Origin: a virus
Strand: one strand, 5' to 3'
Virus record (IMG/VR): IMGVR_UViG_3300037572_000374
Location: 14,506 to 78,505 of that record
DNA length: 64,000 bases
Below, one piece after another: positions 35,457-39,035 of this stretch. Within the stretch, counting starts at the first letter, position 1; each line of letters begins with the position of its first letter. The notes below the pieces were generated by a model. That model saw nothing but the letters and a program-made list of their open reading frames with translations. It was not told the DNA's origin and searched no databases. The position numbers and the translations under genes are program-made.

Positions 35457-37010
35457 ATGAATAAGGAACAAAATAAATTATACAATTACTGTAAAGCAAT
35501 GCTTCTAGATTTTACGATCGAAGGAGAATTCTTGCTTATAGATGGTAATAAGTATATGATCTTAAATGATGAAATTAATCTTATAGATGAAGATGGAGAT
35601 TTTGAACCTGATTCAGTTTTTAAACTAACTGACGATGTAGATGGATTTGTATATGAATTTGGAGGAAGATTCTATACACAAAATAAAGAACAAGATTTAA
35701 CTTTAACTGAGTTAAATTATATTGGTAAAGCAAAAGAGAAATTACCAACAAAATCTTTTCTAGGAATAAGATCAGGATATGAACTTATGAATGGAATGGG
35801 ATTATATAAGTCATGGATATCAAAAGCAAAGTTCTTAGGAGCTGAGGCTTTAGGAATCTGTGAGAAGAATACTCTTGGTGGAGTGCTAAACTTTCAGAAC
35901 GAATGTAAGAATGCAAACATCAAGTCAATAATTGGAATGACTATTTCTGTTGAAGGATCCAAAACATATGATGTAAAATTATATGCAAAGAACTTTCAAG
36001 GATGGTTAAACTTATTGAAGTTCAATACTATAATTAATGTAGATTTGAATTTCAGTGTTCCAATTTCAACATTAGAAAATAACAAAGAAGGATTATTCAT
36101 TGTTGCAGATCCTAAAAGTATGGATTATCACAATGTTAATGAATTAGATGTAGACTTTTATCAATTAGATACTGTAAACTTTTTGAATGCAGATAGAGAT
36201 GAGAAGTACATCAATAATTTAGAGCTATTTATTACGAGCGATATTGAACCAATTAGTATTACAGATGCATTTTATTTAGAATCACAAGACTTTCAGACTA
36301 GAGAATCTTTGTGGACTATCAATAAAGCATTTGACGATAAGACTGACAATCAATATTTCAAGTCTAAGTCACAATATGCTGGTGAATTATTAACTATGTT
36401 TGATTCACAAGATAAGAGTTGGATTGAATTGTATAAAAGAGCAATAAGTAATGAGGTAGTGTTGGTTGAGAATTGTAACTTTAGTTATGATACAGATACA
36501 AGACACTTGCCAAGATATATAATGACTGAAGAAGAGTCTGAAAACTTTGATACAAATGAACTATTGTTCATGAATATAGTTAAGAAAGGATTTAAAGATA
36601 GAGAAGTTAAGGATGCAGAAAAATATGTAGCAAGATTAAAAAAAGAGATTGCTGTATTGAAGATGGGTGATGTAATAGATTACTTTTTAAGTCTTCATGA
36701 TATTATTAGATATGCAAAAAGCAAAAAGATGTTAACTGGAATTGGTCGAGGATCAGCTGGTGGAAGTTTAGTTGCTTATTTGATGGGAATTATTCAAGTG
36801 GATCCTTTAAGATTCGATTTATTATTTGAAAGATTTTTGAATAGTGGAAGGATGGGTAAATTTGAAGAAAGACCTTCTTACATTATTGAAGCAGATGGTG
36901 AAACTTTAGAATTTGAAGAGGGATCCTTAGTAAGAATAAAAAGAGATAGTAAAGAAACAGTTGTCTTTGTACATGAAGTTGTAGAAGGTGATGAAATAAT
37001 AAGATACTAA
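35457..37010 (+). CDS. dnaE: DNA polymerase III alpha, N-terminal part (PHP and start of palm)
   Basis: GIGRGSAGGSLVAYLMGI..DPL..LLFERFLN, then a ~50 aa non-DnaE tail. Confidence 0.9.
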   Translation: MNKEQNKLYNYCKAMLLDFTIEGEFLLIDGNKYMILNDEINLIDEDGDFEPDSVFKLTDDVDGFVYEFGGRFYTQNKEQDLTLTELNYIGKAKEKLPTKSFLGIRSGYELMNGMGLYKSWISKAKFLGAEALGICEKNTLGGVLNFQNECKNANIKSIIGMTISVEGSKTYDVKLYAKNFQGWLNLLKFNTIINVDLNFSVPISTLENNKEGLFIVADPKSMDYHNVNELDVDFYQLDTVNFLNADRDEKYINNLELFITSDIEPISITDAFYLESQDFQTRESLWTINKAFDDKTDNQYFKSKSQYAGELLTMFDSQDKSWIELYKRAISNEVVLVENCNFSYDTDTRHLPRYIMTEEESENFDTNELLFMNIVKKGFKDREVKDAEKYVARLKKEIAVLKMGDVIDYFLSLHDIIRYAKSKKMLTGIGRGSAGGSLVAYLMGIIQVDPLRFDLLFERFLNSGRMGKFEERPSYIIEADGETLEFEEGSLVRIKRDSKETVVFVHEVVEGDEIIRY

Positions 37011-37013
37011 AAT

Positions 37014-39035
37014 ATGAAAGTAACTAAGATAACACAAAACACCTCTATGAAGTTGGTAGATGGAACGCTTCCAGATATTGATACAGATTTTGCTGGTAGA
37101 AATAGAGCTGAGATTAAACAATACATGGAAGATAGATTTGGTCAAGAACAAGTGTGTTCAGTAGGATCTTATTCTACTATGAAATTGAAAGGCTTGGTAA
37201 AAGATTTTGCAAGAATATCTTCAGTTGACTTTAAAGAAGCTAATCTAATTACTTCAATAATTGATGCAGGAGATTTAACTATGTTAGATTTAATTAAAAG
37301 AGCTAGTAGTGAGCCAAGATTAAAGTCTTTCATTCAAAGGAACAGTGACATATTCTATATGTTGCCTACTTTGTTAGATCAGCCTAAGACACAATCAATT
37401 CATCCATGTGCTGTAATTATATTCCCAAGTGTAATGAGTGCATCAGAATGGGTGCCAACAAGGTTACAACAAGGATTAGTAGTTTCAGAATGGGGAGGTA
37501 ATGAAATGGATGATGCTGGATTCTTAAAGGATGATATTTTAGGTATTAAGCAATTAGATAAGTTTACAGATATCTTAGATCTCATAAAGATTAATGATAA
37601 AGAAGTACCTAACATATATGATCTACCACACGATCCAGAAGTATTCAGATACTTTGGTAATGGATGGAATGGAGATGTGTTTCAATTAGGATCCACTGGA
37701 CTTACAGAATATAGTAAAGCACTAAAGCCTCAAAGAATTGAAGATTTAATTGCTGCAACTGCTGTATATAGACCTGGACCAATGGAGAATCACTATCATG
37801 AGATTTATGTAAAGTGTAAGAATGAAGGTAGAGAGCCTAAATACTTATGGGGTACAGAAGAGATTGCAAAGGATACATTTGGACTTTTGATATATCAGGA
37901 ACAAGTAATGCAAGTGTTCCAATTAGTTGGAGGACTGAGTATGAAAGAAGCTGATGATGTTAGGAGAGCAATGGGTAAAAAGAAGTTATCTGCATTGTTA
38001 AAGTGGAAAGAGAAAGTAGCTCAGGGATTCTTAGATAAAGGAGCAACACAAGCTCAGTTTGATGAAGTGTGGGTAGCAGTAATGGAGTTTGCAAAGTATG
38101 GATTCAATAAGAGTCACTCTGCTGCATATGCTATGACTGGTTATGCTTCTCAATGGTTAAAAGTTCATTATCCAATTGAATATTGGACAGTGGCTTTAGA
38201 TTATGCAAATGAAGAAGATACTTTAAAGTATTTATCTGAAATTATGCAAGCCAAAGCAATTAGTGTGAAGGCTCCAGATATTAATCACTCAGCAATGAGT
38301 ATGATATCTGATCAAGAATCAAGTACAATCTTTTGGGGATTAGGATCCATCAAAGGTATTGGAGAAGATACAGCTAATCAAATTATTCAAGATAGAATTG
38401 AAAAAGGAGATTATAAGTCTTTTGCAGATTTTGTATTCAGACATAACTTCAAAGGTAGTAAAGTAAAGAAACAAACATATGAAGCACTAATTGCATCAGG
38501 ATGTTTTGATGATTTATACAATCTTGAAGGTAGAGAAGAAAGAAGACATCTGTTAATAAAGAGATATAGAAAGTATAAAAAAGTAAAGATAGCCAATCCT
38601 AAAAGAGATGTTTATACAATAGGACAGACAGATCAAAGATGGTGGTGGTCATTACAGCAAAAGAGATTAACTGGTTTAGCATTCTTAGACTATAAAGGAA
38701 TAGCAGAAGACTATGGAGTAGAATCTCAATTTGCTACATTAAGTGAAGTTAGTGGAAAGCAAGAGAAATCTATCTTTAGAAGTTTTGGTGGATACATAGT
38801 AGAAGCTAAAGTTGCAAGATCAGCTAAAGGTGAATATTGTAGAATAACAATAGAACATAATTACAAGTTATTTAAGATTATGGTTTGGTCAGAAGAGTTT
38901 GAAAACTTTAAGACTCAACTAAAAGGATCTGAAAAGAATCTGATAATATTTGAGGGTGAATTAAGATATGATGCCAAGTGGGCTAGAGCAAATCAGTTTA
39001 CAATCAAAGAAAATTCAAAATTAATTGTTCTCTAG
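37014..39035 (+). CDS. dnaE: DNA polymerase III alpha, C-terminal part
   Basis: LPDIDTDF, KDDILG, YRPGPM, YQEQVM, YGFNKSHSAAY. Confidence 0.9.
   Translation: MKVTKITQNTSMKLVDGTLPDIDTDFAGRNRAEIKQYMEDRFGQEQVCSVGSYSTMKLKGLVKDFARISSVDFKEANLITSIIDAGDLTMLDLIKRASSEPRLKSFIQRNSDIFYMLPTLLDQPKTQSIHPCAVIIFPSVMSASEWVPTRLQQGLVVSEWGGNEMDDAGFLKDDILGIKQLDKFTDILDLIKINDKEVPNIYDLPHDPEVFRYFGNGWNGDVFQLGSTGLTEYSKALKPQRIEDLIAATAVYRPGPMENHYHEIYVKCKNEGREPKYLWGTEEIAKDTFGLLIYQEQVMQVFQLVGGLSMKEADDVRRAMGKKKLSALLKWKEKVAQGFLDKGATQAQFDEVWVAVMEFAKYGFNKSHSAAYAMTGYASQWLKVHYPIEYWTVALDYANEEDTLKYLSEIMQAKAISVKAPDINHSAMSMISDQESSTIFWGLGSIKGIGEDTANQIIQDRIEKGDYKSFADFVFRHNFKGSKVKKQTYEALIASGCFDDLYNLEGREERRHLLIKRYRKYKKVKIANPKRDVYTIGQTDQRWWWSLQQKRLTGLAFLDYKGIAEDYGVESQFATLSEVSGKQEKSIFRSFGGYIVEAKVARSAKGEYCRITIEHNYKLFKIMVWSEEFENFKTQLKGSEKNLIIFEGELRYDAKWARANQFTIKENSKLIVL

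What the first reader, a model, noticed from the sequence alone, without database searches (positions are those of the whole stretch)
36820..37095. DnaE split at the catalytic palm and capped by non-splicing intein-like segments
Established: DnaE normally reads FERFLNPER.SMPDIDxDF contiguously. Seen: gene 1 ends FERFLNSGR plus MGKFEERPSYIIEADGETLEFEEGSLVRIKRDSKETVVFVHEVVEGDEIIRY; gene 2 starts MKVTKITQNTSMKLVDG plus TLPDIDTDF. The tail resembles the second half of an N-intein (VY.I...G..L..T.DH....R.G.....EL..GD.I) and the head resembles a C-intein start (MKV.KI). However, there is no nucleophilic Cys1, no TxxH and no terminal HN, and the cyanobacterial split site (Y/CFNKSH; here YGFNKSH) is intact. 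Inference: a domesticated half-Hint module acting as a non-covalent clasp that assembles a two-chain polymerase.
Basis: partly seen in the sequence, partly recalled or inferred. Interest (0 to 1): 0.75.

Follow-up and report, generated by a model that had tools for sequence, protein, structure and literature searches.

The report
Dead split-intein clasp in phage DnaE
This marine phage makes its replicative DNA polymerase as two separate proteins whose broken ends are the shrunken, chemically dead middle of a split intein, so the halves are most likely clipped together rather than spliced; this would be a natural, apparently undescribed fate for an intein.

Summary
dnaE is two genes (35457-37010 and 37014-39035), broken four residues before the catalytic PDIDxD strand. 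The break lies inside a roughly 69-aa insertion: a 52-aa tail, then TAA-AAT, then a 17-aa head.

The split is real. Cultured Cellulophaga phages have it in a different frame. In other relatives, homing-endonuclease genes or a 3-kb gene cassette separate the halves. Contigs from independent runs cross the stop without an indel.

The Hint reading is supported.
- Two AlphaFold models (insert pLDDT 83-97) have only Hint domains as top PDB matches. In the VIA search all 25 best of 48,161 chains were Hint domains (Z up to 8.8).
- A profile search found canonical split N-inteins (Cys1, TGNH) at exactly this DnaE site.
- The tail aligns end to end with residues 47-94 of such an N-intein (hhalign 95.7%, E 8.7e-9).

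Block A, block B's Thr/His and blocks F/G are deleted or replaced, so splicing is implausible.

The caps are under purifying selection, and the tail is acidic while the head is basic, as in natural split inteins. Their role as a non-covalent clasp is inferred, not shown.

This scan has noted the same phenomenon in other phage genomes. I found no paper describing it. I class it as a new variant of split inteins / fractured genes.

The parts
35457..37010 (+). dnaE N-half gene (517 aa): PHP domain, first part of the palm (GRGSAGGS, FERFLN), then the tail
   Evidence: ORF and translation. Pfam PHP at residues 104-213 and DNA_pol3_alpha model positions 5-98 at residues 373-465.
36825..36851 (+). 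FERFLNSGR, the last host (extein) residues. The Arg corresponds to E. coli Pol III alpha R396, five residues before catalytic D401.
   Evidence: Profile positions 1-18 align to 2hnh_A residues 380-397. The D401/D403 numbering is from my own knowledge of Lamers et al. 2006.
36852..37007 (+). Tail: 52-aa N-piece of the dead Hint remnant (M466-Y517). It is homologous to residues 47-94 of canonical N-inteins at this site. Block B TGEH is EEGS here.
   Evidence: hhalign probability 95.7%, E 8.7e-9. AF2 pLDDT 93-97. Net charge -7. dN/dS about 0.18 against L004.
37008..37013 (+). TAA stop plus AAT spacer. This is the gene break, at the canonical split-intein / endonuclease-insertion point of the Hint fold.
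   Evidence: Sequence. The tail ends where canonical N-inteins end. Relatives carry GIY-YIG genes at this point. Independent contigs bridge it without an indel.
37014..37064 (+). Head: 17-aa C-piece of the remnant (MKVTKITQNTSMKLVDG). It forms one long beta-strand and matches the start of the C-intein. Blocks F and G are deleted.
   Evidence: Strand E93-107 of model 2, pLDDT about 96 over residues 91-100 and about 85 over residues 101-110. Comparison with the L084 C-intein MKISKIKKIKKI...VHN. Net charge +2.
37065..37091 (+). TLPDIDTDF: the first host residues of the C-half, carrying the two catalytic aspartates of the palm
   Evidence: Translation. Pfam DNA_pol3_alpha resumes at model position 100.
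37014..39035 (+). dnaE C-half gene (673 aa): rest of the palm, the fingers and the HhH domain
   Evidence: Pfam DNA_pol3_alpha 100-260, DNA_pol3_finger and HHH_6.
38097..38117 (+). YGFNKSH, next to the cyanobacterial DnaE split-intein site. It is uninterrupted here.
   Evidence: Relatives L007 and L016 carry a cis mini-intein at YGFNK|SHS.

Best explanation
The two dnaE genes are what remains of a 'fractured gene'. A split intein, originally travelling with a free-standing homing endonuclease, once sat between R396 and the catalytic D401/D403 strand (E. coli numbering).

In this lineage the intein lost its first roughly 46 residues (Cys1, block A) and the last roughly 35 residues of its C-piece (blocks F and G, with the terminal HN). 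The block B Thr and His were replaced. The endonuclease gene is gone from this phage.

What survives is 52 + 17 aa. These are the strands on either side of the canonical split point, which in real split inteins mediate fragment recognition.

Proposed mechanism:
1. The two chains are translated from adjacent cistrons, with only 3 nt between the stop and the next start.
2. The acidic tail and the basic head zip into one small beta-domain with the shape of the Hint core.
3. This holds FERFLN..GR next to TLPDIDTDF, so the Pol-beta-like palm active site is rebuilt from two polypeptides.
4. No peptide bond is formed and the module is not excised.

Shown here: the split, its conservation, homology to inteins, the loss of catalytic motifs and purifying selection. 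Inferred: non-covalent association through the caps, and an active two-chain polymerase.
For: 1. The split is real and old.

2. The halves cannot be one translation product in relatives.
- The gap is 1-2 nt or an overlap in some.
- The gap holds GIY-YIG+NUMOD3 genes in L007, L012 and L016.
- It holds a PAPS-reductase-like gene in L013 and a DNA methylase in L032/L035.
- It holds a 3-kb MazG/ThyX/deoxyribosyltransferase/HD cassette in L006.

3. Predicted fold.
- Model 1: insert pLDDT 83-93. Model 2, from an 80-sequence alignment: pLDDT 93-97.
- Foldseek top hits are all Hint domains for both models.
- In the VIA-align search of 48,161 chains, ranks 1-25 are all inteins, Hedgehog or BIL domains. 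Z is 8.8 for PI-PfuI and 8.6 for the Pho PolII mini-intein (rmsd 1.6 A over 58 residues).
- In endonuclease-bearing inteins the aligned range spans the endonuclease domain.

4. Sequence homology.
- A profile search of 1.84 billion representatives returned 215 clusters.
- These include DnaE N-halves that end in Pfam-recognised N-inteins at the same model position (about 99), with Cys1 and TGNH.
- L084 is a complete canonical example: a 94-aa N-intein, a 361-aa ORF, and a 50-aa C-intein ending VHN|S.
- The tail-only profile against these N-inteins gives probability 95.7%, E 8.7e-9. It covers tail residues 5-51 against intein residues 47-94, ending within one residue of both C-termini.

5. An intermediate clade exists (L032/33/35/37/38/43). 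Its tail is 85-91 aa and starts with Cys directly after FLVPER. Its head is 32 aa and ends GGHA instead of HN.

6. Selection. Against L004, tail dN 0.25 / dS 1.41 and head dN 0.31 / dS 0.92. Tail identity is 0.53, within the range of the rest of the protein (0.43-0.74).

7. Charge. Tails carry net -1 to -9 and heads -1 to +5. This is the pattern that Dassa et al. 2009 report for natural split inteins.
Against: - There is no experimental or multimer evidence that the caps bind each other or are needed for assembly. The large palm interface alone might be enough.
- Re-fused relatives (P0124, P0125) and other contiguous forms keep the insert although they need no clasp. The insert may therefore be kept for another structural reason, or simply because it cannot be deleted cleanly.
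- Sequence similarity to inteins is invisible to Pfam, to pairwise BLASTP and to a tail-only search of PDB sequences. It appears only profile against profile.
- The fold evidence rests on predicted models.
Confidence: 0.7

Rival explanations
1. Inert scar. The caps are a leftover of a dead split intein with no role in assembly. The two halves associate through the normal intramolecular palm/PHP/thumb contacts, and the remnant persists only because a precise deletion is unlikely.
For: Contiguous and re-fused relatives keep the insert without needing a clasp. Other phage 'genes in pieces' function without any intein-derived part (Aeh1 NrdA split by mobE; from my own knowledge).
Against: The caps show purifying selection (dN/dS about 0.2-0.3) and a tightly constrained length. 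Of the listed clusters, 88 have tails of 50-69 residues. Acidic tail and basic head are conserved across the clade. The retained part is exactly the pair of strands that dock in real split inteins.
Confidence: 0.2
2. The module still joins or processes the chains by a non-canonical chemistry. Thr+1 of TLPDID would act as nucleophile, so the mature enzyme would be one chain.
For: Ser/Thr is always present at +1. Cys, Ser or Ala occur at one tail position in some sub-clades.
Against: The Ser/Thr at +1 is native to insert-less relatives as well. The regions holding blocks A, F and G are physically deleted, and block B is EEGS. Position 1 is Met here. The Cys of the sub-clades is Arg in the window's clade.
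Confidence: 0.04
3. Artefact or recoding. The TAA is a sequencing error, or it is read through, so a single 1,192-aa protein carrying a loop insertion is made.
For: In this window the two ORFs happen to be in the same frame, separated only by TAA AAT. Contiguous natural forms with the insert exist.
Against: Relatives have the halves in different frames, overlapping, or up to 3 kb apart. The 517-aa product is on record from two contigs. Contigs from other studies cross the stop unchanged.
Confidence: 0.02

Closest known systems
Fractured genes: naturally split inteins with a free-standing homing endonuclease between the halves (Dassa et al. 2009, PMC2677866; it includes three DnaE loci)
   Same: - Both are phage or environmental replication genes cut in two at a conserved site.
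- The break lies at the endonuclease-insertion point of the Hint fold.
- The N-piece is acidic and the C-piece is basic.
- Relatives of this phage carry GIY-YIG genes in the gap, and L084 is a canonical member at this very DnaE site.
   Different: About half of the Hint domain is deleted here and no splicing residue remains. The window has no endonuclease gene, only a 3-nt gap. The chains therefore cannot be ligated.
Cyanobacterial split DnaE intein (Ssp/Npu DnaE)
   Same: A DnaE made from two genes whose ends are pieces of a Hint domain that dock electrostatically.
   Different: The site differs (Y|CFNKSH in the fingers, which is intact here at 38097-38117). The cyanobacterial intein is full size and trans-splices. 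Its genes are unlinked, whereas here they are adjacent.
   Same: An essential enzyme is split by a mobile endonuclease gene and functions as a non-covalent complex.
   Different: Those splits carry no intein-derived docking module at the broken ends.
Engineered splicing-dead split inteins used as affinity pairs (for example Npu DnaE C1A / N137A tags; intein affinity methods are reviewed in PMC9033041, seen only as a title and abstract)
   Same: Split-intein fragments without catalytic residues still bind each other tightly. This is the behaviour proposed here.
   Different: Those are laboratory constructs with a full-length Hint fold. This is a natural, roughly 69-aa minimal version.

Membership tests
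Inteins / split inteins (Hint superfamily, protein-splicing) | Hint fold | tested here: met
   Only the central part of the fold is present, roughly intein residues 45-120. Both predicted models match Hint domains first, with Z up to 8.8. This is a prediction, not a solved structure.
Inteins / split inteins (Hint superfamily, protein-splicing) | Sequence homology to bona fide inteins | tested here: met
   hhalign probability 95.7%, E 8.7e-9 against canonical N-inteins at the same DnaE site. The profile search retrieves Pfam-confirmed N-inteins. Pfam itself finds nothing on the insert.
Inteins / split inteins (Hint superfamily, protein-splicing) | N-terminal nucleophile (Cys/Ser/Thr at position 1, block A) | tested here: not met
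   Met466 occupies the position aligned with Cys1 of the L032 clade. The first roughly 46 intein residues are absent relative to L084 and P0367.
Inteins / split inteins (Hint superfamily, protein-splicing) | Block B TxxH | tested here: not met
   TGEH/TGNH of the canonical N-inteins aligns with EEGS in the window.
Inteins / split inteins (Hint superfamily, protein-splicing) | Blocks F and G with terminal His-Asn | tested here: not met
   The head is 17 aa and ends VDG. The canonical C-intein of L084 is 50 aa and ends VHN.
Inteins / split inteins (Hint superfamily, protein-splicing) | Ser/Thr/Cys at +1 of the C-extein | tested here: met
   Thr18 of the C-half (TLPDID). This is not diagnostic, because insert-less relatives also have Ser there.
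Inteins / split inteins (Hint superfamily, protein-splicing) | Protein splicing activity | not testable with these tools
   It needs expression of both genes and analysis of the products.
Fractured genes (Dassa et al. 2009) | Free-standing homing endonuclease gene between the two intein halves | tested here: not met
   The window has a 3-nt gap. The feature is met in relatives L007, L012 and L016 (GIY-YIG+NUMOD3). L084 has a 361-aa ORF there, with no significant family assignment.
Fractured genes (Dassa et al. 2009) | Break at the conserved endonuclease-insertion region of the intein (between motifs N4 and C2) | tested here: met
   The tail's last residue aligns within one residue of the C-terminus of canonical N-inteins. 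Structural matches to endonuclease-bearing inteins span the endonuclease domain.
C-family DNA polymerase (DnaE, Pol III alpha) | PHP, palm with GS motif and the PDxDxD aspartates, fingers, HhH | tested here: met
   All are present but distributed over two polypeptides.

The most novel reading that the evidence does not exclude
The short, catalytically dead cap pair, with or without an endonuclease gene in the gap, may itself be a mobile element: a 'non-splicing intein'. It would still home into the R|S-LPDID site of naive phage dnaE genes. It would be tolerated because it re-assembles its host protein non-covalently instead of splicing itself out.

The hint for this is L026. It carries homologous, residue-less caps, yet its polymerase is sister to an insert-less DnaE (SH-aLRT 99). 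In addition, cap-bearing DnaEs cannot be forced into one clade (AU p 1e-77).
Probability: 0.25. Interest if true: 0.85.

Novelty: new variant of a known kind. Interest (0 to 1): 0.7.

Why it matters
**Intein evolution.** The intein life cycle is usually drawn as invasion, endonuclease decay, mini or split intein, then loss. These phages show another stable endpoint. A split intein that can no longer splice is trimmed to its docking core and kept for a long time. There are 215 clusters at 50% identity, most of them of the short form. The result is an essential replicative polymerase that is permanently two chains, with its active site built across the interface.

**Testability.** Cultured Cellulophaga phages (phiST, phi13:1, phi19:2) carry the same arrangement, so the idea can be tested directly.

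**Practical use.** If the caps do bind, a natural 52 + 17 aa pair would define the minimal self-associating core of the Hint fold. It could serve as a small, orthogonal, non-covalent heterodimerisation tag.

Tried and rejected
**Searches that gave nothing useful**
- phmmer of the joined 73-aa insert against PDB sequences gave only chance hits, bL21 and uL13 at E about 1.
- Pfam on the insert, on the contiguous P0244 and on other tails found no Hint family at E <= 10.
- A tail-only profile against PDB sequences put the P-type ATPase A-domain and AbrB on top (E 0.003-0.03), with an intein at E 1.3. I read this as a shared local pattern, R-x-G-K-E-x-V-x-V-x-E-L-x-x-G-D-x-I. The structure search gives CopA only Z 2.6.
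- The anchored profile gave the Aes123 PolB1 intein E 0.013, which is marginal.
- BLASTP of the tail against the L084 N-intein gave E 4.4.
- The search for related loci with the single protein found nothing.

**Discarded alignments**
- MAFFT alignments A2 and A3 misplaced the tails onto the heads and were discarded.

**Hypotheses considered and rejected**
- Read-through, frameshift or sequencing error. Frames and gaps differ among relatives.
- An RNA intron in the gap. The caps are conserved as protein and are translated in frame in contiguous relatives.

**Evidence that could not be used**
- The one metatranscriptome run (X24) covers only 37040-37400, at 90-95% likeness. It says nothing about expression of this phage.
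- No supplementary files of Dassa et al. are held, so I could not check whether one of their three DnaE loci is at this site.
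Full report
**What is in the window**

The stretch 35457-39035 holds two co-oriented ORFs of 517 and 673 aa, separated by TAA AAT. Pfam finds one DnaE spread over both.
- PHP and DNA_pol3_alpha model positions 5-98 are in the first ORF.
- Model positions 100-260, the finger domain and HHH_6 are in the second.

The first protein runs through FERFLNSGR and then has 52 extra residues. 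The second has 17 extra residues before TLPDIDTDF. A profile of the junction aligns FERFLN..R to E. coli Pol III alpha residues 388-396. The break is therefore four to five residues before the catalytic Asp401/Asp403 strand; that numbering is from my own knowledge. YGFNKSH is intact at 38097-38117.

**The split is real and conserved**

- The window is 73% identical in DNA to Cellulophaga phages phiST, phi19:2 and phi13:1 (genus Cbastvirus). Their records annotate two 'DNA polymerase III alpha subunit' CDS, with a 1-nt gap and therefore in different frames.
- A word-indexed search of 5.8 billion proteins found 1,138 relatives of about 515 aa. The 120 listed all cover the tail completely.
- After the ERFLN motif, the tail segment is 60-61 residues long in 119 of 121 sequences. 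Its consensus is GRMGxxEDRPxYxxxxEDGxxIELxEGSLVRIxRxxKExVVFxHELxEGDEIIxY.
- In IMG/VR relatives the gap between the halves varies. It may be:
  - 1-3 nt, or an overlap;
  - a 69-79 aa ORF (L003, L005, L017, L040);
  - GIY-YIG+NUMOD3 endonuclease genes (L007, L012, L016);
  - a PAPS-reductase-like gene (L013);
  - an N6/N4 DNA methylase (L032, L035);
  - a 3-kb MazG / DUF6378 / ThyX / deoxyribosyltransferase / HD-nucleotidase cassette (L006, L011).
- Contigs from runs of other studies (X6, X7) cross 37008-37016 with substitutions only.

Error, read-through and frameshifting are excluded as general explanations.

**The caps are one inserted domain**

Insert-less relatives (about 1,131 aa) read FERFLNEGR-IGGS-LPDIDTDF. 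A few full-length relatives (P0124, P0125, P0137, and later P0308, P0327, P0328, P0346, P0374) carry a contiguous insertion of 70-98 aa at the same place. I cut the N-terminal polymerase part before the insert and built a tree from it. P0124 and P0125 nest deep inside the split clade (SH-aLRT 97-99), so they are most simply secondary re-fusions.

**Fold**

The window's two ORFs are in frame, so I folded the read-through (TAA read as Gly) of the junction region.
- With 18 aligned sequences the insert had pLDDT 83-93.
- With 80 diverse sequences it had pLDDT 93-97 and the same strand order.
- Foldseek against the PDB ranked only Hint domains at the top for both models: Hedgehog 1at0, and the TFIIB, RadA, CDC21 and PolB1 split inteins. 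E was 0.014-0.5 and probability about 1.0.
- VIA-align does not depend on Foldseek. Over 48,161 representative chains, its 25 best were all inteins, Hedgehog or BIL domains. Z was 8.8 for PI-PfuI, 8.6 for the Pho PolII mini-intein (rmsd 1.6 A over 58 residues) and 7.2 for gp41-1.
- The matched part is the middle of the Hint domain, roughly residues 45-120. In endonuclease-bearing inteins the aligned range runs across the endonuclease domain.

**Sequence homology: the decisive result**

Single-sequence and Pfam searches saw nothing. A profile of anchored tails against 1.84 billion representatives gave 215 clusters at E <= 0.001.

Among these are DnaE N-halves whose DNA_pol3_alpha match stops at model position about 99 and is followed by a Pfam-recognised N-intein: P0329, P0353, P0359, P0367, P0381 and P0386. 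Most of these (P0329, P0353, P0359, P0367) read ...FLNPxR[KN]-C[LI]T...ELTGNH...DELKExDFLxT[FY]-stop.

Locus L084 is a complete canonical fractured dnaE at this site. It has:
- a 94-aa N-intein;
- a 361-aa intervening ORF;
- a 50-aa C-intein, MKISKIKKIKKI...ILVHN, followed by SPPDLDIDF.

I compared a tail-only profile, with no polymerase anchor, against these N-inteins. The result was probability 95.7%, E 8.7e-9. Tail residues 5-51 align with intein residues 47-94, ending within one residue of both C-termini, and TGEH lies opposite EEGS.

The gene break is the intein's own split point. The missing parts are exactly those that carry the chemistry.

**A graded series**

- Canonical forms have Cys1 + TxxH + HN.
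- A GC-richer clade (L032/33/35/37/38/43) keeps an 85-91 aa tail that starts with Cys straight after FLVPER, and a 32-aa head that ends GGHA in place of HN. Block B is also lost there.
- The window's clade has 52 + 17 aa and no catalytic residue.

Among the 150 listed clusters:

| Form | Clusters |
|---|---|
| Short tails (50-69 residues after FLN) | 88 |
| Canonical (Cys1 and TxxH) | 8 |
| Cys1 only | 7 |
| Contiguous | 6 |

Bona fide inteins also sit at other sites of these phage polymerases, so the family is heavily exposed to inteins.

**How it probably works**

Neither half can be active alone. The GS motif and PHP are on one chain. All three palm aspartates, the fingers and the HhH are on the other.

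The retained strands are those that flank the split point and, in real split inteins, drive fragment association. Dassa et al. describe an acidic N-piece and a basic C-piece. Here tails carry net -1 to -9 and heads -1 to +5.

The caps evolve under purifying selection. Against L004, tail dN is 0.25 and dS 1.41, and head dN is 0.31 and dS 0.92. Tail identity is 0.53, against 0.43-0.74 elsewhere in the protein.

I therefore think the module docks the two chains right next to the catalytic strand, without ligation or excision. The close spacing of the cistrons may help by coupling their translation.

This step is inference. The main rival is that the remnant is an inert scar. The persistence of the insert in re-fused genes fits that rival as well.

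**Evolution and mobility**

Cap-bearing polymerases are not one clade. Forcing them together costs 272.7 log-likelihood units (AU p 1e-77). The caveats are that the group was defined after the tree had been seen, and that one clade sits on a long branch. L026, whose caps are homologous and lack catalytic residues, is sister to an insert-less DnaE (SH-aLRT 99). Either the element entered this site repeatedly or it was lost precisely several times. Both belong to the homing cycle.

**Comparison with what is known**

The nearest described system is the 'fractured gene' of Dassa et al. 2009, which includes three DnaE loci with functional split inteins. I could not check whether one of them is at this site, because no supplement is held.

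Four literature searches found no description of a natural, truncated, non-splicing split intein kept at a gene break. Subscription journals are not covered by those searches.

Earlier notes of this scan report the same phenomenon in other phage genomes. I re-derived the claim independently here.

Noticed in passing
L007:5872-8430 and L016:5728-8301 (C-halves of relatives): Canonical cis mini-inteins are inserted at YGFNK|SHS, three residues from the cyanobacterial DnaE split-intein site. The same loci also carry the dead caps and a GIY-YIG gene at the palm break.
   Followed up: partly
L019:3456-8463: This relative's DnaE is in three ORFs (811, 122 and 699 aa). A Pfam-detectable intein lies at the GRGS region of the N-part and another in the fingers. 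The dead-cap break is present as well.
   Followed up: partly
L006:3934-6979 and L011:1681-4723: A 3-kb nucleotide-metabolism cassette sits between the two dnaE halves: MazG, DUF6378, ThyX-like, nucleoside 2-deoxyribosyltransferase and an HD 5'-deoxynucleotidase.
   Followed up: partly
L013:5113-5997; L032:5014-5781; L035:5002-5781: Non-endonuclease cargo occupies the gap between the halves: a PAPS-reductase-like gene in L013, and an N6/N4 DNA methylase in L032 and L035. The break seems to act as a landing pad for accessory genes.
   Followed up: no
P0389 (254 aa): This is a family-A DNA polymerase fragment ending in an N-intein. The second half of that intein matches the DnaE tail profile (E 1.5e-5), so related split inteins occur in PolA genes too.
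   Followed up: no
P0296, P0306, P0343 (2215, 1494 and 2916 aa): These large repeat proteins have 7-12 stretches each that match profile positions of about 21-60 of the tail. P0306 shows only faint jelly-roll/Ig-like Pfam hits; P0296 and P0343 were not scanned against Pfam. It is unexplained whether this is a shared beta-hairpin pattern or real kinship.
   Followed up: partly
window:36897-36941 against 37041-37088: The tail segment EFEEGSLVRIKRD resembles the head/extein segment KLVDGTLPDIDTD closely enough to mislead MAFFT (alignment A3). It is probably chance, but a local duplication was not excluded.
   Followed up: no
L084:5595-6680: The 361-aa ORF lies between the canonical intein halves. 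Its only Pfam hit is a faint one to DUF7487 (E 0.002). Its C-terminal part contains a ...VMGDYWHCN... stretch that I did not compare with any endonuclease family. It is possibly the Vsr-like homing endonuclease family of Dassa et al.; this was not tested.
   Followed up: no
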